A DNA stretch of 35,182 nucleotides from Fidelibacterota bacterium (GTDB lineage Bacteria; Fidelibacterota; Marinisomatia; Marinisomatales; UBA1611), in the NCBI GenBank assembly GCA_038281125.1, contig JAYNUL010000005.1, forward strand, positions 1 through 35,182, written 5' to 3'. Shown one piece after another: positions 8,861 through 27,342 of the stretch; the stretch's first letter is position 1; every line of letters starts with the position of its first letter. Under the pieces are notes generated by a model. It made no database searches. It saw only the letters and a list, made by a program, of their open reading frames with translations, and was not told the DNA's origin. The position numbers and the translations under genes are program-made.

Positions 8861-9361
8861 TCAATCATTATTCATGCCTGGATGTATAGGTTTTTTAAAT
8901 GAGTCTGTTGACAACCTTTCATCGGCGTATTTTACAAAGTCCGAACTAAAGGCAGTTTTTGAAGAATTCCACCATTCTGCTGGTCCGCCAGAAGAAATAA
9001 GTGTCAATATAGATCTCTCAAACCCTTCAATCCTTATTTGGTCAATAGATCCATAAATTCCTTGTACATAAATAGCCTCAAACCTTCGAAGTGCAACCAC
9101 CATCCAAAAATGAAATCTGATACGCTCTTCTGGAGATAAATCATCCAAGCTTTCAGAGGCCTTTACGACTATTCTGGCAAGTTCTCCATCACTTGATATT
9201 GCATTAGCAGTTAAACTCATATCCATGCTACTTTGTTGAAAGGTTTGGGAACGCAAAGCACGTGTATTTTGTTTTAATTGAATTGCGAGATAAACAAGCG
9301 TAGCTACGGTTGCTACTGCAGCAATCAATTCACCTAAACTTCCCAAATCTTGAATGGTCAT
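8861..9361 (-). CDS. hypothetical single-pass membrane protein
   Basis: 166-aa ORF with an N-terminal TM segment (LGELIAAVATVATLVYLAI). G+C is visibly higher than in neighbouring genes. I recognise no family. Confidence 0.55.
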   Translation of the reverse strand: MTIQDLGSLGELIAAVATVATLVYLAIQLKQNTRALRSQTFQQSSMDMSLTANAISSDGELARIVVKASESLDDLSPEERIRFHFWMVVALRRFEAIYVQGIYGSIDQIRIEGFERSILTLISSGGPAEWWNSSKTAFSSDFVKYADERLSTDSFKKPIHPGMNND

Positions 9362-20237: not shown

Positions 20238-22100
20238 ATGACAATGAAAGATATGGCATATATTCCTCTTTTTTGCATATTGATATTTTCTTGCACTGAA
20301 GATCCGATTACGATCCCAGAACCTGATACGACACCGCCTCAGGCAATTGTCCTCTTTCCAATTGATGGAGAACCAGTCTCCGGTGAAGTTGTTATAGAGG
20401 TCAGATCAGTTGATAATGATAAAGTGGATTCAGTCCAATTTCTTATTAATCAGAAAAGGGTGTTTACTAATTCCAGCCAGTCCAATGATATTTTCAAATA
20501 TACCTGGGATACTGAGGAAACAGTGATAGTAGATGGCGTTCAAGAAAAATTATATGCAGAGGATCAATTTCATTATATATCCGCAATAGCATACGATCCA
20601 ATTGGAAATAGTTATGCCTCTGTTACAACGAGAAGCAAAGTAGACAACATCGACAATGAACCACCAACTGCATTCTTCTTAAGCCCATTTGCTGGACAAT
20701 ATGTAAGCGATGTAGTCAATATAGAAGTAATTGCAACAGACAATGATAGCATTCAATATGTTAGCTTTTTCATCAATAATGTTTTACAAGGATATGTTCA
20801 AGAGTCTCCCTATTTATTTCCTTGGAATACGAATTTAGTTGAGAGCGGAAACTTTTATTCAATTCATGCAAATGTAAAAGATTTAAGTAATAATACTAAA
20901 ACAATAGCACCCATAAACGTTTTTGTTGATAATGGACTTGAGAGCGATGTAACGCCACCCACTGGAGCTATTGTTAGCCCTCCTGCAGGGCTAACTGTAA
21001 GTGGTGATGTACAGATAATTGTTAGCGCTAATGACAATCGCGCAATGAAAGAGGTAGCGTTATCAATCAATGGTACCTATATAACAACGATTGAGCAGCC
21101 ACCCTTTTTTTACAGTTGGGACACTTCTCTTGAGCAAGAAGATGCAGAGCATACAATAAGTGTAGTTCTTAAAGATCTTGCTGGTAATGAGACCCCTCTG
21201 AACCCTATATCAGTGGTGGTTGATAATATCGCGCCAGCAGATATAATTCCGCCAACTGTTATTATCATGAGTCCAGTTGCCGGACAAGAATTAAGCGGAA
21301 CCATAGACATAGAAGTTATTGCAAATGACAACACTGGAATAAATTATATAGAATATTATATTGATGGACAATCATATTCAGTTGATAGTATTCCCCCATA
21401 TATCCAAGAATGGGACACGGAAACTGCAGAAGATGATATGGAACATATCATTGCAGCCGTTGGTTATGATAATGAAGGTAATTCTTCGCTTGCGACACCA
21501 ATTGCGGTATACGTTGATAATCGGGATGACATTGCCCCATCTGGGCAAATTCAAAATCCAATTCCTGGACAAACTGTAAACGGAACTATTTCCATAGAAA
21601 TCATTGCAACCGATAATATAGAGGTTGATAATGTAGAACTTTCAATAAATGGTATACCCAGAGATACACTAAGTGATTTTCCTTATGTTTATGATTGGGA
21701 TACTAGCCAAGAAATTGACGATCAGAGTCATGTAATAAGTGCAGTTGTATCAGACACTTCGGGAAACATTGGTTTTATTCCTCCTGTAAGTGTAATTGTG
21801 GACAACCAGATTAATGACTCAACTCCACCAACAGGTCTTATCTCAAATCCTATTTCTGGTCAAACCGTAAGTGGAACAGTTGAAATCACCGTGCTAGCTC
21901 AAGACGATTACGGTATTGAAAATATTACATTTTTTATTGATGGAATAAATATATCAAATGATAATACAGCTCCTTATTCGTATGCATGGGACACTACAAC
22001 CCTTGAAAATGGTAGTGAGCATACCATTTCTGCATCCATTACAGATATCGTAGGCCATCAAACGATTCTTCAACCAGTTTTAGTAACCGTATCAAACTGA
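20238..22100 (+). CDS. surface lipoprotein made of six tandem Ig-like (Big_7-like) domains
   Basis: The lipobox is ILIFSC. It has six repeats of about 95-100 aa with the pattern PPxGxIxxPxxGQxVSGxVxIxVxAxDNxxIxxVxFxIxG......PYxYxWDTxxxxDxxHxIxAxxxDxxGN....PVxVxVDN. Confidence 0.75.
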   Translation: MTMKDMAYIPLFCILIFSCTEDPITIPEPDTTPPQAIVLFPIDGEPVSGEVVIEVRSVDNDKVDSVQFLINQKRVFTNSSQSNDIFKYTWDTEETVIVDGVQEKLYAEDQFHYISAIAYDPIGNSYASVTTRSKVDNIDNEPPTAFFLSPFAGQYVSDVVNIEVIATDNDSIQYVSFFINNVLQGYVQESPYLFPWNTNLVESGNFYSIHANVKDLSNNTKTIAPINVFVDNGLESDVTPPTGAIVSPPAGLTVSGDVQIIVSANDNRAMKEVALSINGTYITTIEQPPFFYSWDTSLEQEDAEHTISVVLKDLAGNETPLNPISVVVDNIAPADIIPPTVIIMSPVAGQELSGTIDIEVIANDNTGINYIEYYIDGQSYSVDSIPPYIQEWDTETAEDDMEHIIAAVGYDNEGNSSLATPIAVYVDNRDDIAPSGQIQNPIPGQTVNGTISIEIIATDNIEVDNVELSINGIPRDTLSDFPYVYDWDTSQEIDDQSHVISAVVSDTSGNIGFIPPVSVIVDNQINDSTPPTGLISNPISGQTVSGTVEITVLAQDDYGIENITFFIDGINISNDNTAPYSYAWDTTTLENGSEHTISASITDIVGHQTILQPVLVTVSN

Positions 22101-24421
22101 TGAATAAACAATATTTTTACTTGTCAATTGTATTGATGCTGTTCCTAAGCTGCGAGGGACCATTTTTTGATGTCCCAGCTGATGAAGATTCCATTCCTCC
22201 AACACTGACAATTACTTTCCCTGCAGATCAATCAATATTGTCTGATTCTGTTTTGATAAGCGCATATGCTTTTGATAACGTCGGTCTTGAAAAAGTTACT
22301 CTTTATCTTAATGATTCTATTGTACACGAAAGCACTGAAGGTCCCTATGAATATAATTGGTCTACTCTTGAGAATGCTGAAGATGAATTCCATACCATTA
22401 GGGCAAAAGCAGTTGACCTTGCTGGGAATGAGAATTTCACAAATACGATACAGGTACTAGTTGACAATCAGGATAATATAAGTCCAACTGGGGCATTAAT
22501 ATTCCCATTTACAGGTCAAATATTAACAGGTGAAATCACCATAATCTTGGAGGCAAATGACAACGATGAGGTAGCGCTTGTAACCTTATATATTGATGGC
22601 GATTCTGTAATGACTTATCAAGAACCACCCTATCGATATGACTGGAACACTCTTGAAGAAATAGATGATGTAATCCATACCATTCATGCTCACATCCAAG
22701 ACAATGCCGGCAACCAAATAACTCTGGGACCAATAAATGTAACCATTGATAATTATGAATCAGATGATAATATTGCCCCTACTGGAACCATAACCAGCCC
22801 TCCATCTGCTTCAACCGTATCTGGTACAGTAAATATTGAAGTTAATGCTTTTGACAATTTAAGAATGGGCCATGTTGATTTTATTATTGACGGTACCGCA
22901 GTATTTAGTGACTCCCTGCCCCCTTATTCCTTTAGTTGGAATACCTTGGTAGAGGCCGAAGACTCAGACCATGTGATAAATATTAACCTGTCTGATTCTG
23001 CAGGAAATACAACATCATTATATCCTGTCACTGTATTTGTTAATAATGTTGTTGATCCTGATGTTACCCCGCCAAATATTGTAATTTACGATCCTGCGGC
23101 AAATCAGACGGTTTCTGGCACAGTTACGTTTTTAACTATTGCTACAGATGACATTGCAGTTGACAGAGTAGAGTTCTATCATAATTACGAACTGGTATTT
23201 ACCGCTACATCCTACCCATTTAGCTATGATTGGAACTCAACACTTGCGGATGAAGATACAGAACACATATGGCATGCAAAGGCATTTGATACGAGTGGCA
23301 ATGAAGCACAAACTCAACCGATGGTGCTTATTGTTGATAATGTGGACAATATTCCACCAACTGGCTTTATTCTTCATCCCTATGCGGGGCAGGTAGTCAG
23401 TGGTGATATTGAGATTCAGGTTTCTGCGTCTGATAATGTTGGTGTTAATCAAGTTACATTCTTTTTAAATGGAAATATTTTATCTTCAGATTCACAGTCT
23501 CCATTTTCTTACAATTGGAATACAACTACTGCTAGCGAAGATGAAGAACATGTTCTTTATGCTAGCATTACCGATTTGCAAGGAAATACTACAAACCTTC
23601 CATCCATTTCAGTGACTGTAGATAATGATGACGCTCCAGAAAATGACATTACTCCCCCGTTTGTATCCATTATTACTCCATTATCTACTCAAACTGTGAG
23701 CGATACAGTAGTAATCACTGGTTTTGCAACTGATAATCATGAGGTTTCTCAGGTAATGTTTTATGTGAATGATCAATTGATTCAAACCGTTACTGATTCT
23801 CCTTTTACTGCATCTTGGATTACATATGATTTACCAAATAGTTCTGAACATATTCTTCAAATAACAGCAACAGATCCCTCTGGAAATCAGTCGAGTGCTC
23901 AACCTGTTTTGGTTACCGTTGTCAATGAATATATTGGTACAATAAACAATTTTACAGTTCTGGAAACTGAAAATACTATATCACTTAATTGGGATGCACC
24001 TAATAATGCTGAGTCATTTAAAATCTACAAGGATGGTAGTTTTTTGGTAGAAATCAGTGAACAAACCTTTGATGATGTTGTTGATCCAGGTGTAGAGCAT
24101 TGCTACGTAGTATCTGCAATAAATGGTGTAAATCTTGAGGGTCCGCTTTCTGAAGAGGAATGTGGTACGAGTCTTTATCCACCATCGCCAACACTATCTC
24201 TAGCGATTGATGGCTCCCTTGCAAATCTTTCTTGGACATCTGTATCGACTGCAGAATCATATAGACTATATCAGGATAATGCTTTTATAACAGAGCTAAC
24301 CGTTCTAAATCATACACTAGATATCGGAACTGGAACAAATACCTGCTTTAAAGTTACCGCGATCAATTCAATCGGAACTGAGAGCCTAGTATCTAATGAA
24401 GAATGTGGTGCAGGGTCCTAA
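22100..24421 (+). CDS. surface lipoprotein with six Ig-like (Big_7-like) domains and two C-terminal FN3-like modules
   Basis: The ATG overlaps the upstream TGA by 1 nt (tgATGa). The lipobox is LFLSC. It has six repeats of the same type as the upstream gene (PYEYNWST, PYRYDWNT, PYSFSWNT, PFSYDWNS, PFSYNWNT, PFTASW). Two modules of about 80 aa follow (SLNWDAP...YKDG...C...EECG). Confidence 0.75.
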   Translation: MNKQYFYLSIVLMLFLSCEGPFFDVPADEDSIPPTLTITFPADQSILSDSVLISAYAFDNVGLEKVTLYLNDSIVHESTEGPYEYNWSTLENAEDEFHTIRAKAVDLAGNENFTNTIQVLVDNQDNISPTGALIFPFTGQILTGEITIILEANDNDEVALVTLYIDGDSVMTYQEPPYRYDWNTLEEIDDVIHTIHAHIQDNAGNQITLGPINVTIDNYESDDNIAPTGTITSPPSASTVSGTVNIEVNAFDNLRMGHVDFIIDGTAVFSDSLPPYSFSWNTLVEAEDSDHVININLSDSAGNTTSLYPVTVFVNNVVDPDVTPPNIVIYDPAANQTVSGTVTFLTIATDDIAVDRVEFYHNYELVFTATSYPFSYDWNSTLADEDTEHIWHAKAFDTSGNEAQTQPMVLIVDNVDNIPPTGFILHPYAGQVVSGDIEIQVSASDNVGVNQVTFFLNGNILSSDSQSPFSYNWNTTTASEDEEHVLYASITDLQGNTTNLPSISVTVDNDDAPENDITPPFVSIITPLSTQTVSDTVVITGFATDNHEVSQVMFYVNDQLIQTVTDSPFTASWITYDLPNSSEHILQITATDPSGNQSSAQPVLVTVVNEYIGTINNFTVLETENTISLNWDAPNNAESFKIYKDGSFLVEISEQTFDDVVDPGVEHCYVVSAINGVNLEGPLSEEECGTSLYPPSPTLSLAIDGSLANLSWTSVSTAESYRLYQDNAFITELTVLNHTLDIGTGTNTCFKVTAINSIGTESLVSNEECGAGS

Positions 24422-24739: not shown

Positions 24740-24767
24740 AAAAGGCCCCATTAATGGGGCCTTTTTT
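24740..24767. terminator. bidirectional rho-independent terminator
   Basis: An 11-bp stem, aaaaggcccca / tggggcctttt, with loop ttaa. An A-run lies on one side and a T-run on the other, so it reads as hairpin plus U-tract on both strands. It is 1 nt downstream of the tRNA-Gly 3' end (minus) and downstream of the 20238-24421 genes (plus). Confidence 0.7.
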
Positions 24768-24768
24768 G

Positions 24769-24841
24769 AGCGAGAGACGAGATTCGAACTCGCGACCCTC
24801 ACGTTGGCAACGTGATGCTCTACCAGCTGAGCTACTCTCGC
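24769..24841 (-). tRNA. tRNA-Gly (anticodon GCC)
   Basis: Reverse complement: acceptor gcgagag/ctctcgc, D arm gctc-agctggta-gagc, anticodon stem tcacg/cgtga with loop uuGCCaa, T arm gcgag-ttcgaat-ctcgt and discriminator U. No CCA is encoded. Confidence 0.9.
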
Positions 24842-24905
24842 ATTTTTGTTTTAAAATTGTTATGCGGTAACTGAAATTATGTAATGAAGACATGGATCAC
24901 AAAGC

Positions 24906-25349
24906 TCATTTTGGATAAAATTCAAGTAACCTTGATTTTGATTGGTGAACAATGTAACAGGCACCGAGAAATAGAAAATTTTCTACTATTTTTGACCATC
25001 CAACCACTTCGCCTTCTTTAAGTCCACATCCACAATCAATATTAAATCCCCTTAATATCGCTTGAGCAATCAAAACAATAAATAAAGCCAAAAGTCCTCC
25101 GCTAATAAATGTATTAGCATTTATATAAACTCCAAAAATAATGCCCAAACCAATAATTAATTCAAGCCATGGAAGAATTATTGCAATCGAATTTTCTAGT
25201 CCAAATGGGACAACATGGTAGTTAGATATATCTCGAGCAAATTTTCCAGGATCTAATATTTTATCATAGCTAGCATAAATGAAAATTAGGCCTAATAAAA
25301 TTCTTATAACTAAAATTAATACTGGATGAATTTTATTCATTATAGTCAA
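24906..25349 (-). CDS. MauE/DoxX-family redox-associated membrane protein
   Basis: 147 aa with four hydrophobic helices. Motifs are IFIYASYDKILDP..F, LPWLELIIGLGIIFG and the characteristic NIDCGCG. It overlaps the rhodanese gene by 17 nt. Confidence 0.8.
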   Translation of the reverse strand: MTIMNKIHPVLILVIRILLGLIFIYASYDKILDPGKFARDISNYHVVPFGLENSIAIILPWLELIIGLGIIFGVYINANTFISGGLLALFIVLIAQAILRGFNIDCGCGLKEGEVVGWSKIVENFLFLGACYIVHQSKSRLLEFYPK

Positions 25350-25821
25350 TATCTAGGCCTGATTCACTCCATGTTTTCCAACCACCCTTGAAGACGAGGA
25401 TATTATTAAATCCATATTCTTGCAGGTCATAGGCAAGATCTTCACTTGATCCACAATCATCATCGCTACAATAGATAACAAATCCCCTATCAAAACCAAT
25501 CAGTGTTGCTATCTCATCGGATAGTGCATCAGTATCATCATTATTAATTGCACCCGGAATAAAACCATCTTCCAAGTATTCCTCCGAGCGCGCGTCTACA
25601 AAAAGGGTACCATTTTTCTGGAGGTTCATCGCAGTCTCTAAATTAATTTCCCTTACGCTGGGTACATCTATATTTAACTCGATATTATTAGTGCTGTTTA
25701 TCTTTTCCATTGGTTTTGCTAACCAGGAAATACCACCATCCCTTAAAGCATTAAAACTGGCACCACACAAAACCGAGATTCCTGTTATAATTAAAACTTG
25801 TTTAAATAATTTTATGTCCAA
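25333..25821 (-). CDS. membrane-anchored rhodanese-like domain protein
   Basis: 162 aa with an N-terminal TM anchor. The rhodanese-like region reads LFVDARSEEYLEDGFIPGAIN, with an active-site-loop-like VIYCSDDDCGSSEDLA and FKGGWKTW. Confidence 0.8.
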   Translation of the reverse strand: MDIKLFKQVLIITGISVLCGASFNALRDGGISWLAKPMEKINSTNNIELNIDVPSVREINLETAMNLQKNGTLFVDARSEEYLEDGFIPGAINNDDTDALSDEIATLIGFDRGFVIYCSDDDCGSSEDLAYDLQEYGFNNILVFKGGWKTWSESGLDIDYNE

Positions 25822-25830
25822 TCGCTGAAC

Positions 25831-27012
25831 CTAGTGATCGTGCCCTGCATGACGATTATTTTTGTTTTTATTTCGGGCTACTGGTTTCTTTTTTGGAGCC
25901 AGAGAGTCACAGGTTTTCACTGAAGAGGTAACAAAAGCCAATAGCTCTTCATCATCTCCAACTTTATTGTTTAGTGGATTTGTTTGAAATTTTAGAGTGT
26001 TTACTGCTGAGGCAATCACTTGCTCTGAGTTTTTTAAATCTTCCCTATATTTTTTTATAAGATTTAGTACATTTTCTTGATCTGCATAAATTTCTTCAAG
26101 ATTCTTTTCTGGGTCTTTTTTCTGGAGCTTATCAAATCTTTTTTGTACTGATTTAATCTTTTTCTCTTCGGCTGATATATCAACAAATGGCACACCTTTT
26201 TCTTTGACATCCAAGGTTAAGGTCATAAGGTATTTCCCTTGCTTGCCGCAGGAATACATAAATGGTCCATTTTCTTTTTGAGGACTATTTGTTCGGGACA
26301 TGCTTGTGTTGCCGCTTGTAACTATAAAATCAATATCTGGCAGCTTTTCAGGTAACCCATTTTGAGAAGACCTACTAGCATTCACTAGCGCGACGATGAT
26401 ATCTACTTTGTTTTCTAATTCTTTTGCATACCGATTACATGATTCAATAAAATCATCTGACTTAATGAATTCCATTGTATCCGGAATAAGATCAGTAGCT
26501 CCTATTACCCCGATTTTGAGCTCTCCTCTTTCAAAAATAATATAAGGATCAAATAGAAGTTGACCTGATTTGGAATCTTTTAGATTCGATGAAATAAAAG
26601 GAATATCTGTTTTCTTTACCATTTCCTGTAGAAACGATAAACCATTTAGTACCTCATAGTGCCCAACATTTATTACATCGCATCCAACTTTCTGAAATCC
26701 CTCCATTATTGCATTCGCACGGAAAATCTCAGAATTTTTATTGGTCGCATCAATGTTCTTTGTACTAAAAAACAGATCACCTGCATCCAAGATCAATGGA
26801 TCGATCCCGGCATCTCTCATTTCTTTGATTTTAACATATTTTCTAGACAGACCGCCTAGGGGATTCTTCTTTCAGCCACAAGGGTCTAACTGGCCATGAA
26901 CTGATCCTGACATTACCATAGTAACAGTACCATGGGCTGAGGTTTTTGTACAAGACCACATGGTCATGAACATCATTATAAATAAAAAGTAACTCTTAAT
27001 TGATAATTTCAT
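25831..27012 (-). CDS. 5'-nucleotidase/UshA-like (calcineurin-fold) lipoprotein, putative selenoprotein with an in-frame UGA at codon 47
   Basis: The track ORF (25831-26820) starts mid-domain at MRDAGIDPLILDAGD and has no signal peptide. The same frame continues upstream through a single TGA (26872-26874) to the ATG at 27012: MKLSIKSYFLFIMMFMTMWSCTKTSAHGTVTMVMSGSVHGQLDPCG[TGA]KKNPLGGLSRKYVKIKEMRDAG.... This restores a lipoprotein signal (MWSC) and the first metallophosphoesterase block (..VHG..). A SECIS-like hairpin follows the TGA. The ATG lies 6 nt after the yciH stop. Confidence 0.6.
26843..26859 (-). promoter_or_regulatory. candidate bacterial SECIS hairpin
   Basis: The mRNA reads UGA AAG AAG AAU CCC CUA GGC GGU CUG UCU AGA. 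The 6-bp stem is CUAGGC / GUCUAG (one G-U pair) with loop GGUCU. Counting the U of UGA as 1, the loop occupies positions 22-26, which puts G23 and U24 where I recall them in the E. coli fdhF SECIS (..GCA GGU CUG CAC..). Confidence 0.5.
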
Positions 27013-27018
27013 TTGTTT

Positions 27019-27342
27019 TTATCCACCACTAAGTTTCACATCGTACCCTTTTTTTGAAAGGATTTCTTTGACTATGTCGCGCTTATTGCCTTGTATAAGT
27101 ATCCTGTTTTCTTTGAATGAACCTCCAACTCCGCATCTTTTTTTTAGCTCTTTTGTCAAATTGACCATTTTTTCATCTTCATGAACCAAGCCTTTAATAA
27201 CGGTAACTATTTTCCCACCGCCTCTCCTATCAAGGTGAAGGCGTACTTTCTGTTGAGATGGTTTTGGATGATGGATATCGGTTAATTCATCATCTCTGTA
27301 AGAACCATTATCAGTTGAGTATACTATTCTAGAGTTGGACAT
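27019..27342 (-). CDS. yciH: SUI1/YciH-family translation initiation factor-like protein
   Basis: 107 aa. ...VRLHLDRRGGGKIVTVIKGL...LKKRCGVGGSFKENRILIQGNKRD.V...L...GY.VK..GG is the classic SUI1/YciH pattern. Confidence 0.85.
   Translation of the reverse strand: MSNSRIVYSTDNGSYRDDELTDIHHPKPSQQKVRLHLDRRGGGKIVTVIKGLVHEDEKMVNLTKELKKRCGVGGSFKENRILIQGNKRDIVKEILSKKGYDVKLSGG

What the first reader, a model, noticed from the sequence alone, without database searches (positions are those of the whole stretch)
24769..27342. Candidate envelope selenol/thiol redox module: yciH - Sec lipoprotein - rhodanese - MauE/DoxX (- tRNA-Gly)
Four minus-strand genes are spaced at 6 nt, 9 nt and a 17-nt overlap. All three downstream products carry reactive Cys/Sec motifs: C-G-U in the lipoprotein, YCSDDDCG in the membrane-anchored rhodanese and DCGCG in the MauE/DoxX membrane protein. 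Rhodanese plus MauE/DoxX is a recurring redox-associated pair. Adding a Sec-bearing lipoprotein with a phosphoesterase fold suggests a relay that handles sulfane sulfur, selenium or disulfides across or at the membrane. I do not know of a characterised function for this trio. Of everything in the window, it is the best candidate for an undescribed system.
Basis: inference. Interest (0 to 1): 0.6.

Follow-up and report, generated by a model that had tools for sequence, protein, structure and literature searches.

The report
Selenoprotein–rhodanese–MauE envelope redox module
In the abundant uncultured ocean bacteria Marinimicrobia, a known but function-unknown selenocysteine protein almost always sits beside a membrane-anchored rhodanese and a MauE/DoxX membrane protein, which points to a three-protein cysteine/selenocysteine redox chain at the cell envelope that I did not find described in the searchable literature.

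Summary
The "Sec lipoprotein" is a real selenoprotein. TGA is kept in all 137 Marinimicrobia relatives examined, Cys replaces it in other phyla, and a covarying SECIS-like hairpin follows it. The family is already known: "UshA-like", CxU, Zhang & Gladyshev 2008; NCBIfam NF041198. Here it is a short, haem-less form below the NCBIfam cut-off.

The gene trio is the new part.
- In the window's clade, 37-38 of 39 testable species-level loci have selenoprotein→rhodanese→MauE.
- A second deep Marinimicrobia clade (26-35% identity) has rhodanese→MauE→selenoprotein at every testable locus. Fifteen of those loci fuse rhodanese and MauE into one ORF.
- The Cys homologues of Bdellovibrionota and Myxococcota lack both partners and carry a fused tetrahaem cytochrome c domain.
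- The phosphoesterase metal and catalytic residues are largely replaced. PCG[U/C] is invariant, as are Cx4C in the rhodanese and CGC in MauE.

yciH is not part of the module.

Best reading: a periplasm-facing selenol/thiol relay, probably linked to the membrane quinone pool. Substrate and direction are inferred, not shown. It is a new variant of a known kind, of moderate to high interest.

The parts
25831..27012 (-). UshA-like (5'-nucleotidase N-domain fold) selenoprotein, 393 aa. It has a signal peptide with a possible lipobox (MWS-C21), the motif D-P-C45-G-U47 and the C-terminal tail H-A-G-H-D-H.
   Evidence: (NF041198, 220 bits, profile positions 2-396 of 519). TGA is conserved in 56 + 81 relatives.
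26872..26874 (-). In-frame TGA, read as selenocysteine (U47).
   Evidence: Cys (TGY) occupies the same column in Bdellovibrionota and Myxococcota homologues.
26843..26859 (-). SECIS-like hairpin CUAGGC-GGUCU-GUCUAG. It starts 13 nt after the UGA.
   Evidence: The six core pairs are almost always paired. Columns 24/36 covary (GC 35, AU 14, GU 3, CG 1, UA 1; never unpaired in 54 sequences). The GGUCU loop is invariant.
25333..25821 (-). Single-domain rhodanese, 162 aa, with an N-terminal membrane anchor. The domain is predicted to be periplasmic.
   Evidence: PF00581, 2e-12. It lies directly next to the selenoprotein gene in 37-38 of 39 clade-A loci and is present in clade C.
25453..25470 (-). 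Rhodanese active-site loop C118-S-D-D-D-C123 (a Cx4C pair, acidic).
   Evidence: both Cys kept in all complete clade-A orthologues. Clade C has YC[SD]G..CS.
24906..25349 (-). MauE/DoxX-family four-helix membrane protein, 147 aa by the longest ORF. The likely start is the ATG at 25340.
   Evidence: PF07291, 1.9e-28; PF07681, 7.7e-8. It overlaps the rhodanese stop in most loci and is fused to the rhodanese in 15 clade-C loci.
25026..25034 (-). MauE C106-G-C108 motif, in the loop between helices 3 and 4. The loop is predicted to be periplasmic.
   Evidence: xCGC[GF] in all but one MauE segment examined. The topology is inferred from the fusion architecture and the positive-inside rule.
27019..27342 (-). 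yciH (SUI1-family translation factor homologue). It is co-transcribed upstream but is not a module component.
   Evidence: It lies upstream in 43 of 48 clade-A loci and is absent from clade-C loci. RNA contigs span the yciH/selenoprotein junction.
24768..24841 (-). tRNA-Gly(GCC), 64 nt downstream of MauE and upstream of the only strong terminator. It is probably on the same primary transcript.
   Evidence: Metatranscriptome contig X1 record 1 spans 24777-25476.
24740..24765 (-). Intrinsic-terminator-like hairpin (AAAAGGCCCCA-UUAA-UGGGGCCUUUU) followed by a U-rich tail.
   Evidence: -18.9 kcal/mol. The consensus scan missed it.

Best explanation
The three genes downstream of yciH encode one conserved, periplasm-facing cysteine/selenocysteine redox module that was found only in Marinimicrobia (SAR406).

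**The catalytic or terminal component** is a selenoprotein built on a 5'-nucleotidase/UshA N-domain scaffold. Most of the phosphoesterase metal and catalytic residues have been replaced. The conserved centre is the loop P-C-G-U, a Cys-Gly-Sec pair able to form a selenenylsulfide.

**The two partners** are a membrane-anchored periplasmic rhodanese with a Cx4C pair in an acidic active-site loop, and a four-helix MauE/DoxX membrane protein with a C-G-C pair in a periplasmic loop. Together they form the wire that exchanges redox equivalents between the Sec centre and the membrane.

**Most likely direction (inferred):** MauE acts like DsbB or the quinone-binding DoxD and passes electrons to quinone. 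The chain would then be substrate -> C-G-U -> rhodanese Cx4C -> MauE CGC -> quinone. In Bdellovibrionota and Myxococcota the same PCGC centre is instead wired to a fused C-terminal tetrahaem cytochrome c domain.

**Shown:** the selenoprotein is real, the module is conserved, fusions exist, the motifs are conserved, the catalytic metal site is degenerate, and the haem domain and the rhodanese/MauE pair are mutually exclusive in the sampled clades.

**Inferred:** physical thiol-selenol exchange among the three proteins, the quinone link, the direction, and the substrate. A reduced sulfur compound or protein thiols are the leading candidates.

yciH and tRNA-Gly are co-transcribed passengers.
For: **The selenoprotein is real.**
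- TGA occupies the same codon in 56 genome loci and 81 metagenome loci.
- Cys sits in that column in 19 Bdellovibrionota and Myxococcota loci and in several library proteins.
- The downstream hairpin with an invariant GGUCU loop covaries at synonymous sites.
- TGA is an ordinary stop for MauE.

**The module is conserved.**
- In clade A, 37-38 of 39 non-redundant loci with room have rhodanese at -70 to +44 nt, followed by an overlapping MauE. This holds down to 33% identity, where the other flanking genes have changed.
- In clade C (26-35% identity), also Marinimicrobia by adjacent GroEL names, every locus with upstream sequence has rhodanese->MauE->selenoprotein.
- Fifteen clade-C loci have rhodanese and MauE in one ORF.
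- Only these families are shared between the two neighbourhoods.

**Phylogeny.**
- The Sec/haem-less proteins are monophyletic (100/98).
- Clade C is sister to A+B.
- The Cys proteins with four CxxCH motifs lie outside and have no rhodanese or MauE within 8 kb.

**Motifs and scaffold.**
- PCG[C/U], GG and R57 are invariant in 60 sequences.
- Cx4C and CGC are conserved.
- The AlphaFold model has pLDDT 90 and a 5'-nucleotidase N-domain fold.
- Motif residues are replaced relative to solved 5'-nucleotidases: DxH->SxH, GNHExD->G[HKQ]YExL, H->N, GHxH->SG.T. The bridging Asp becomes Asn in clade C.

**Expression.** Metatranscriptome contigs cover 24.7-27.4 kb only and bridge the yciH/Sec-gene, Sec-gene/rhodanese and rhodanese/MauE/tRNA junctions.

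**Precedents.**
- M. tuberculosis DoxX forms a membrane oxidoreductase complex with the sulfurtransferase SseA and SodA (Nambi 2015, as cited in PMC7907618 and PMC6930017).
- TsoB is listed as a rhodanese/DsbD-fusion-like selenoprotein with motif Ux4U (PMC13188914), the same spacing as Cx4C here.
Against: - No biochemical datum exists for any of the three proteins.
- The module was found only in one phylum, so part of the conservation could be inheritance.
- One clade-A locus with room (L018) lacks the pair nearby. In its sister species (L029) the pair lies 9 kb away.
- The nested paralogue clade B has no adjacent partner. In 2 of 3 testable loci it follows a TlpA/AhpC-like WCKPC redoxin.
- Haem-less Cys forms from other lineages have neither a haem domain nor rhodanese/MauE nearby. 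The 'alternative wiring' picture is therefore not universal.
- The acidic rhodanese loop is atypical for sulfurtransferases.
- The quinone link and the direction rest on analogy and redox-potential reasoning from general knowledge.
- I could not read coordinates from the model, so the position of C45/U47 relative to the old metal site is inferred from alignment.
Confidence: 0.55

Rival explanations
1. Sulfane-sulfur (or selenium) trafficking. The rhodanese carries a persulfide on C118, as the periplasmic Sud protein and PspE do. It hands S(0) to or from the C-G-U centre. The SoxB-related scaffold processes a protein-bound sulfur adduct, and MauE/DoxX passes the electrons to quinone as DoxD does in thiosulfate:quinone oxidoreductase. 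On this reading the module is a small sulfur-oxidation or polysulfide-handling system.
For: - There is a rhodanese fold with the canonical catalytic Cys.
- The selenoprotein profile also matches SoxB (TIGR04486, 7e-17; PDB 4uwq and 2wdc, about 4e-10).
- The DoxX domain is said to occur in archaeal sulfur-oxidation proteins (PMC6930017).
- The haem-fused Cys homologues recall the haem plus active-Cys chemistry of Sox enzymes (general knowledge).
- Marinimicrobia are linked to marine sulfur cycling (general knowledge; not checked here).
Against: - The active-site loop is strongly acidic (S-D-D-D). It carries a second conserved Cys where sulfurtransferases have basic or hydroxyl residues, which argues for a dithiol rather than an anion-binding persulfide site.
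- The SoxB similarity is no greater than the similarity to any 5'-nucleotidase, and the dimanganese ligands are not kept.
- No sox, psr or sqr gene is a conserved neighbour.
Confidence: 0.2
2. Dedicated maturation factors. MauE, with MauD, is needed to mature the disulfide-rich small subunit of methylamine dehydrogenase. By analogy, the rhodanese and MauE would serve only to form or repair the Cys-Sec bond, or to load a sulfur or metal cofactor, in the exported selenoprotein. The catalytic cycle of that protein would not involve them.
For: - The MauE family is named for this role (Pfam description of PF07291).
- The partners are encoded once per genome locus, while a second paralogue (clade B) in the same MAGs has none of its own and could share them in trans.
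- The coupling is tight and looks translational.
Against: - The Cys homologues carry four haems fused to the same scaffold. That speaks for a catalytic electron path to or from the PCGC centre, not a one-off maturation step.
- Rhodanese-MauE fusions and strict adjacency in two clades are more typical of subunits than of chaperones, though they do not exclude the latter.
Confidence: 0.15
3. Metal or metalloid handling. The C-G-U loop, the His-rich C-terminal tail (H-x-G-H-[DN]-H), the acidic Cx4C loop and the membrane CGC bind and pass a soft metal or metalloid (Cu, Hg, Zn, Ni, As, Se, Te) across or at the membrane. This would resemble MerP/MerT or rhodanese-fold arsenate reductases.
For: - A His-rich tail is present in the window's protein and in many clade-A and clade-C members.
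- Vicinal Cys/Sec pairs occur in all three proteins.
- Selenoprotein forms of mercury-transport proteins are listed in PMC2398784.
Against: - The His tail is missing from many orthologues that keep the trio, for example L015, L016, L027, L036 and L047-L057.
- No metal-resistance regulator or efflux gene is a conserved neighbour.
- The tetrahaem fusion in homologues is hard to reconcile with a pure binding or transport role.
Confidence: 0.07
4. There is no functional link. The adjacency is inherited synteny within one phylum.
For: All trio-bearing loci that could be assigned are Marinimicrobia.
Against: - The gene order differs between clades A and C while adjacency is kept.
- Gene fusions exist.
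- Flanking genes are not shared between the clades.
- Adjacent genes overlap stop to start.
Confidence: 0.03

Closest known systems
UshA-like selenoprotein family (COG0737, motif CxU; Zhang & Gladyshev 2008, PMC2398784; NCBIfam NF041198 'UshA_like_PCGU')
   Same: It has the same fold, the same P-C-G-U motif and the same Sec position. It is marine and was listed among the 20 most abundant selenoprotein families in the GOS data.
   Different: The window's protein scores 220 bits, below the curated 275, and covers only profile positions 2-396 of 519. The long homologues that fill that length carry four CxxCH haem motifs, which the Marinimicrobia forms lack. In the papers I could search, no function and no gene neighbourhood were given for this family.
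Tso 'three selenoprotein operon', in particular TsoB, a rhodanese/DsbD-fusion-like selenoprotein with motif Ux4U (NF045694; PMC13188914)
   Same: A rhodanese domain with a redox pair at x4 spacing is joined to a thiol-carrying membrane protein and encoded next to other selenoproteins. The window's rhodanese weakly matches the TsoB model (E = 9.7e-5). Clade C has true rhodanese-membrane protein fusions.
   Different: Here the pair is Cys, not Sec. The membrane partner is MauE/DoxX, not DsbD-like. The associated selenoprotein is unrelated to TsoA or TsoC. The score of 20.6 bits is far below the 805-bit cut-off. I could not read the original Tso paper, so I could not check that Ux4U lies in the rhodanese loop.
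M. tuberculosis membrane-associated oxidoreductase complex DoxX-SseA-SodA (Nambi et al. 2015, as cited in PMC7907618 and PMC6930017)
   Same: A DoxX-family integral membrane protein works with a rhodanese-family sulfurtransferase in thiol redox homeostasis.
   Different: SseA is a cytoplasmic two-domain sulfurtransferase. The third partner is a superoxide dismutase, and no selenoprotein is involved. The relationship is at Pfam level only.
MauE/MauD of methylamine dehydrogenase clusters, and DsbB/DsbA
   Same: A small polytopic membrane protein with a periplasmic Cys pair is teamed with a periplasmic dithiol protein that acts on an exported target.
   Different: The periplasmic partner here has a rhodanese fold with Cx4C, not a thioredoxin fold with CxxC. 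There is no mau cluster. A quinone link is not shown for MauE.
5'-nucleotidase UshA/CD73 and thiosulfohydrolase SoxB (dimetal phosphoesterase fold)
   Same: The N-terminal domain fold matches (Foldseek E about 1e-19; sequence E 1e-10 to 1e-22).
   Different: The C-terminal substrate-binding domain is absent. Most metal ligands and the His-Asp catalytic pair are replaced. The protein is therefore very unlikely to be a nucleotidase.

Membership tests
Bacterial selenoprotein (UGA-Sec) | In-frame UGA with the reading frame conserved on both sides | tested here: met
   TGA in 137/137 Marinimicrobia relatives, with conserved protein sequence before and after it.
Bacterial selenoprotein (UGA-Sec) | Cys-containing homologues at the same position | tested here: met
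   PCGC in Bdellovibrionota, Myxococcota and several library proteins.
Bacterial selenoprotein (UGA-Sec) | SECIS hairpin just downstream of the UGA with G in the apical loop | tested here: met
   a 6-bp stem starts 13 nt after the UGA, the GGUCU loop is invariant, and there is compensatory change at one pair. The single-sequence fold energy is not unusual.
Bacterial selenoprotein (UGA-Sec) | selA, selB, selD and tRNA-Sec present in the genome | not testable with these tools
NCBIfam NF041198 UshA_like_PCGU | Score at or above the curated cut-off (275 bits) over the full 519-position model | tested here: not met
   220.2 bits, matching positions 2-396 only.
NCBIfam NF041198 UshA_like_PCGU | PCG[U/C] motif after the first phosphoesterase motif | tested here: met
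NCBIfam NF041198 UshA_like_PCGU | C-terminal region; in full-length homologues this is a four-CxxCH cytochrome c domain | tested here: not met
   the domain is present in Cys homologues of 514-564 aa and absent from all Marinimicrobia forms. That the model's last 120 positions are this domain is my inference from the lengths.
5'-nucleotidase / metallophosphoesterase (as an enzyme) | Dimetal ligands and the His-Asp catalytic pair (DxH, GD, GNHExD, H, GHxH) | tested here: not met
   only the His of motif I and the GD Asp remain in clade A. The GD Asp is Asn in clade C.
5'-nucleotidase / metallophosphoesterase (as an enzyme) | C-terminal nucleotide-binding domain (5_nucleotid_C) | tested here: not met
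   no Pfam domain is found. The model shows a helical C-terminal part instead.
Rhodanese (PF00581) | Domain score above the gathering threshold, and a catalytic Cys at the start of the active-site loop | tested here: met
   47.9 bits against 22.2; YC conserved.
Thiosulfate sulfurtransferase-type rhodanese | Six-residue, basic or hydroxyl-rich active-site loop that binds thiosulfate | tested here: not met
   the loop is C-S-D-D-D-C-G, acidic, with a second conserved Cys. The expected loop character is taken from general knowledge.
NF041203 rhodanese_LYCAU (seleno)protein | Score at or above 115 bits, and the LYCAU motif | tested here: not met
   43.6 bits. The motif here is IYCSDDDC.
MauE (PF07291) / DoxX (PF07681) | Domain scores above the gathering thresholds | tested here: met
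   99.8 bits against 27, and 33.3 bits against 23.6.
YciH (TIGR01158 / NF006536) | Score above the curated cut-off | tested here: not met
   88.1 bits against 111.65, and 91.9 bits against 142. Pfam SUI1 is met. It is a SUI1-family protein, probably a YciH orthologue.
Bacterial lipoprotein | Lipobox [LVI][ASTVI][GAS]C at the end of the signal peptide | tested here: inconclusive
   M-W-S-C21 has Trp at position -2, which is atypical. W/x-S/T-C is conserved in clade A. Clades B and C have no such Cys.

The most novel reading that the evidence does not exclude
The trio is a previously unrecognised kind of periplasmic oxidoreductase, free of flavin and haem. A Cys-Gly-Sec centre sits on a 'dead' phosphoesterase scaffold and is wired by pure thiol chemistry (rhodanese Cx4C, then MauE CGC) to the quinone pool. 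In other phyla, evolution has wired the same centre to four c-type haems. It would oxidise or reduce a small sulfur or selenium compound, or protein thiols, in the dark ocean. It would give the first function to the UshA-like selenoprotein family and a defined catalytic role to MauE-type proteins.
Probability: 0.25. Interest if true: 0.8.

Novelty: new variant of a known kind. Interest (0 to 1): 0.6.

Why it matters
The UshA-like family has been one of the abundant marine selenoprotein families since 2008, with no function assigned. Marinimicrobia (SAR406) are among the most abundant uncultured bacteria of the deep and oxygen-poor ocean.

Three results give the first concrete, testable functional hypothesis for the family:

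- This selenoprotein is locked to a rhodanese/MauE pair.
- The pair is sometimes fused.
- Homologues elsewhere carry a tetrahaem domain instead.

The results also give an experimental handle on MauE/DoxX proteins, whose biochemistry is poorly understood. Finally, they show a phosphoesterase fold re-used as a carrier of a Cys-Sec redox centre.

Tried and rejected
**Searches that failed or gave little.**
- A single-protein scan of genome contigs found nothing.
- The 24-sequence alignment was too diverse to give search patterns.
- The word-based homologue searches with the rhodanese and with MauE returned only close Marinimicrobia relatives. They did not test whether the pair recurs in other phyla.
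- The literature search for 'TsoB' found only the review.
- The listing of cluster members on clade-C selenoproteins gave no organism names. GroEL neighbours did.

**Readings rejected.**
- *Pseudogene:* rejected because of TGA conservation, frame conservation, Cys homologues and RNA contigs across the TGA.
- *TGA=Trp genetic code:* rejected. Several database entries show 'W' there, but MauE in the same operon ends in TGA, and the loci translate to those entries only 'with_TGA=W'.
- *Nucleotidase function:* rejected on the motif residues.
- *yciH as a module member:* rejected.

**Other negative or uninformative results.**
- The single-sequence fold of the SECIS region is not unusual (z = 0.91). 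The evidence for the hairpin is comparative.
- The promoter/terminator consensus scan was uninformative and missed the terminator after the tRNA.
- The weak P4Ha_N Pfam hit (below cut-off) is disregarded.
- The ORF upstream of the haem-less Cys homologue in L082 is not a paralogue.

Full report
**1. What is in the window**

Four genes and a tRNA lie head to tail on the minus strand:

| Feature | Coordinates |
|---|---|
| yciH | 27342-27019 |
| 393-codon frame with one in-frame TGA at codon 47 | 27012-25831 |
| Rhodanese | 25821-25333 |
| MauE/DoxX protein | 25349-24906 |
| tRNA-Gly(GCC) | 24841-24768 |

The MauE ATG at 25340 would give the 8-nt overlap that most orthologues show.
- The motifs C-G-U, YCSDDDCG and DCGCG are present.
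- A strong hairpin with a U tail follows the tRNA (24765-24740; -18.9 kcal/mol). None lies between MauE and the tRNA.
- Pfam and NCBIfam confirm SUI1/YciH-like, rhodanese and MauE/DoxX.
- MauE itself ends in TGA, so TGA is a normal stop in this organism.

**2. The selenoprotein is real, and its family is known**

*Family assignment.* NCBIfam's best hit is NF041198 'UshA_like_PCGU, UshA-like (seleno)protein' (E = 4.6e-65). The score of 220 bits is below the curated 275, and only model positions 2-396 of 519 are matched. A 'COG0737, UshA-like' selenoprotein family with motif CxU was described from the Global Ocean Sampling data. It had 76 Sec sequences and ranked among the 20 major marine families (PMC2398784). 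Later reviews list it too (PMC9312934; PMC13188914). None of these texts gives it a function or a gene neighbourhood.

*Evidence for Sec decoding.*
- Most database homologues begin just after the TGA, or show 'W' at it. Those with W translate only with TGA=W.
- All 56 Marinimicrobia loci from the species-level genome collection have TGA in D-P-C-G-TGA. So do all 81 loci of a second clade.
- All 19 Bdellovibrionota and Myxococcota loci have P-C-G-C.
- Downstream of the TGA, 54 distinct sequences share the hairpin CYNGGC-GGUCU-GYCNRG. One pair lies at the wobble positions of a Leu and a Ser codon. It occurs as G-C (35), A-U (14), G-U (3), C-G (1) and U-A (1), and is never unpaired. Slid controls drop from 88% to 23-50% paired.

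**3. What kind of protein it is**

- The AlphaFold model built from a 60-sequence alignment is confident (pLDDT 90, pTM 0.85). It matches the N-terminal metallophosphoesterase domain of UshA and CD73 (Foldseek E about 1e-19).
- There is no C-terminal nucleotide-binding domain.
- Aligned to solved 5'-nucleotidases, the signature residues are mostly replaced:

| Solved 5'-nucleotidase motif | This family |
|---|---|
| D-x-H | S-x-H |
| G-N-H-E-x-D | G-[H/K/Q]-Y-E-x-L |
| SH | VN |
| G-H-x-H | S-G-x-T |

- The remaining bridging Asp of 'DAGD' is Asn in the second clade.
- The residues invariant across all 60 sequences are G40, P44-C45-G46-[C/U]47, G53-G54, R57, D76, G78 and D79.

The conserved functional centre is therefore the PCG[C/U] loop. 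It replaces the loop after motif I of ordinary 5'-nucleotidases. The protein is very unlikely to be a nucleotidase.

**4. The trio is a conserved module**

Clade A holds 48 non-redundant loci with 33-73% identity.
- Of the 39 loci with at least 1 kb downstream, 37-38 have the rhodanese gene at -70 to +44 nt, followed by MauE, which mostly overlaps by 4-8 nt or more.
- This holds in the deepest branches (L047-L057), where the other flanking genes of the window (a 448-aa protein, an esterase) are gone.
- The exceptions form one small subclade. L018 has no pair within 8 kb. Its relative L029 has the rhodanese-MauE pair, still together, 9 kb upstream.

*Clade C.* A distant Sec homologue from the 50%-identity library (P0156) has the tail of a rhodanese gene, then a MauE gene directly upstream that overlaps it. 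That lead prompted a metagenome scan, which returned 80 loci.
- These proteins are 26-35% identical to the window's protein.
- Every locus with upstream sequence has rhodanese -> MauE -> selenoprotein, which is the other gene order.
- In 15 loci the rhodanese and MauE are a single ORF: N-terminal helix, rhodanese, linker helix, four-helix MauE.
- Clade C is also Marinimicrobia. GroEL genes about 3 kb away are identical to proteins that NCBI names from Candidatus Marinimicrobia/Neomarinimicrobiota MAGs.
- Clustering all flanking ORFs shows that the selenoprotein and the rhodanese/MauE genes are the only real families shared by the two neighbourhoods. yciH is absent from clade C.

*Phylogeny.* A maximum-likelihood tree shows the following:
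- The Sec, haem-less proteins are monophyletic (100/98).
- Clade C is sister to A+B.
- Clade B is a paralogue nested inside clade A.
- The Cys proteins lie outside.

*Motifs.* The conserved motifs accompany the module:
- Rhodanese: YC-x4-C(G/S).
- MauE: x-C-G-C-[G/F].

**5. What homologues without the partners have instead**

- *Bdellovibrionota and Myxococcota.* These proteins are 514-564 aa long and carry four CxxCH motifs in a C-terminal Cytochrome_C554-like domain. No rhodanese or MauE lies within 8 kb. In Bdellovibrionota the gene follows an OmpA/Pal-like gene, a DUF4398 gene and a TPR (CpoB-like) gene, and it precedes what looks like tsaD.
- *Clade B.* These paralogues occur in MAGs that also have a clade-A locus. 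They have no adjacent partners. In two of the three loci with upstream sequence the gene directly follows a TlpA/AhpC-like redoxin with WCKPC.
- *Haem-less Cys forms.* Three loci from unassigned lineages (L082, L084/L085, L086/L087) have no obvious redox neighbour.

The picture of a PCG[C/U] centre plus an exchangeable electron partner fits the large clades, but it is not universal.

**6. Topology and expression**

*Topology.*
- The selenoprotein has a signal peptide. Clade A has a conserved Cys after it (W-S-C), which may be a lipobox but has an atypical Trp at -2. Clades B and C have no such Cys.
- The rhodanese has two Lys before its single N-terminal helix, which suggests N-in with the domain outside.
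- In the natural fusions a linker helix separates the rhodanese from MauE helix 1. That places the rhodanese on the same side as MauE loops 1 and 3, and the CGC motif is in loop 3 (inference from sequence).
- All three Cys/Sec pairs are therefore predicted to face the periplasm.

*Expression.* Contigs from four marine metatranscriptomes cover about 24.7-27.4 kb and nothing beyond. Individual contigs bridge these junctions:

| Junction | Contig coordinates |
|---|---|
| yciH / selenoprotein, including the TGA | 26745-27136, 26830-27243, 26780-27039 |
| Selenoprotein / rhodanese | 25578-25981 |
| Rhodanese / MauE / tRNA-Gly | 24777-25476 |

These are assembler contigs from related strains (90-99% identity), and DNA carry-over cannot be excluded. 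This is supporting evidence for one transcript, not proof.

**7. How it most likely works**

*Shown.* Three exported or membrane proteins each carry an invariant closely spaced Cys/Sec pair. They are inherited as a unit, are sometimes fused, and are replaced by a haem domain in the Cys relatives.

*Inferred.* The pairs exchange redox equivalents in the chain selenoprotein C-G-U <-> rhodanese Cx4C <-> MauE CGC <-> membrane.

*Direction.* I favour MauE as the oxidant, DsbB-like and passing electrons to quinone, for three reasons:
- Its only conserved Cys pair is periplasmic, so it cannot take electrons from cytoplasmic thioredoxin as DsbD does.
- DoxX relatives include the quinone-binding subunit of thiosulfate:quinone oxidoreductase.
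- Quinol is too weak a reductant for disulfides.

All three points come from general knowledge, not from tests run here.

*Analogy.* A Cx4C dithiol feeding a Cys-Sec pair is the logic of mammalian thioredoxin reductase (general knowledge).

*Precedents from the literature.*
- The DoxX-SseA-SodA complex of M. tuberculosis (PMC7907618, PMC6930017).
- TsoB, a rhodanese/DsbD-fusion-like selenoprotein with motif Ux4U (PMC13188914).

*Substrate.* Unknown. Reduced sulfur compounds or protein thiols are candidates.

*Rivals.*
- Persulfide trafficking, which the acidic two-Cys loop argues against.
- Dedicated maturation in the MauE/MauD manner, which the haem fusion in relatives argues against.
- Metal handling; the His-rich tail is not conserved with the trio.
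- Mere synteny, which the rearranged order and the fusions argue against.

**8. Verdict**

- The trio is a genuine, conserved and apparently undescribed module.
- yciH is a passenger.
- The selenoprotein family is known.
- The module was found only in Marinimicrobia.
- The relay mechanism is still inference.

I reached both points from my own searches.

Noticed in passing
window 27019-27342 and clade-A loci: A SUI1/YciH-type translation factor gene sits 3-13 nt upstream of the selenoprotein gene, or overlaps it by 8-11 nt, in 43 of 48 clade-A loci. RNA contigs bridge the junction. It is absent from clade C. It is unknown whether this tight coupling to a UGA-recoded gene has any meaning.
   Followed up: partly
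window 24740-24841: tRNA-Gly(GCC) lies between MauE and the only strong terminator, so it is probably processed out of the operon transcript. Metatranscriptome word depth is very high at the tRNA, though other organisms' tRNAs also contribute.
   Followed up: partly
L042 7233-7901; L044 7375-7983: The paralogous Sec protein (clade B, no lipobox) is directly preceded by a TlpA/AhpC-like periplasmic redoxin with WCKPC. This may be an alternative thiol partner. It is seen in 2 of 3 loci with upstream sequence.
   Followed up: partly
L064, L066, L068, L069 (Bdellovibrionota): The Cys/tetrahaem homologue is the last gene of a conserved string OmpA/Pal-like - DUF4398 - TPR (CpoB/YbgF-like). It is followed by what look like tsaD and rsmA. 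This is a Tol-Pal-type envelope neighbourhood rather than a respiratory one.
   Followed up: partly
window 25831-25866 and many loci: The C-terminal tail H-x-G-H-[D/N/E/K]-H (or HDHDGDGIPDH in part of clade C) follows a Lys-rich, low-confidence linker. It is present in many clade-A and clade-C proteins but is missing from the deep clade-A branches.
   Followed up: partly
L033 ~9150, L034 ~9170-9215, L041 9828-9831: Some MAG copies have extra stops in the Lys-rich tail of the selenoprotein (L033, L034) or a frameshift inside MauE (L041). These are probably assembly errors, or real decay in those lineages.
   Followed up: no
clade-C loci, e.g. L143 279-1925; L056 1052-2890: In clade C the module often lies about 3 kb from groEL (14 loci) and next to a gene of about 520 aa that looks PpiD-like (47 of 81 loci). 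Both are envelope or protein-folding genes. The PpiD identification rests on my reading of the N-terminus only.
   Followed up: no
L011 (CAJWMM010000125.1): A 2.9-kb contig carries a typical Marinimicrobia clade-A trio. Its selenoprotein sits on near-zero branches (0.0012 and 0.0033) next to that of L012 in the tree. The contig is deposited in a MAG labelled Gammaproteobacteria, which is probably a binning error.
   Followed up: no
window 20238-24421: Two large Big_7 (bacterial Ig-like) repeat proteins lie on the opposite strand just beyond the tRNA. They are syntenic in many clade-A loci.
   Followed up: no
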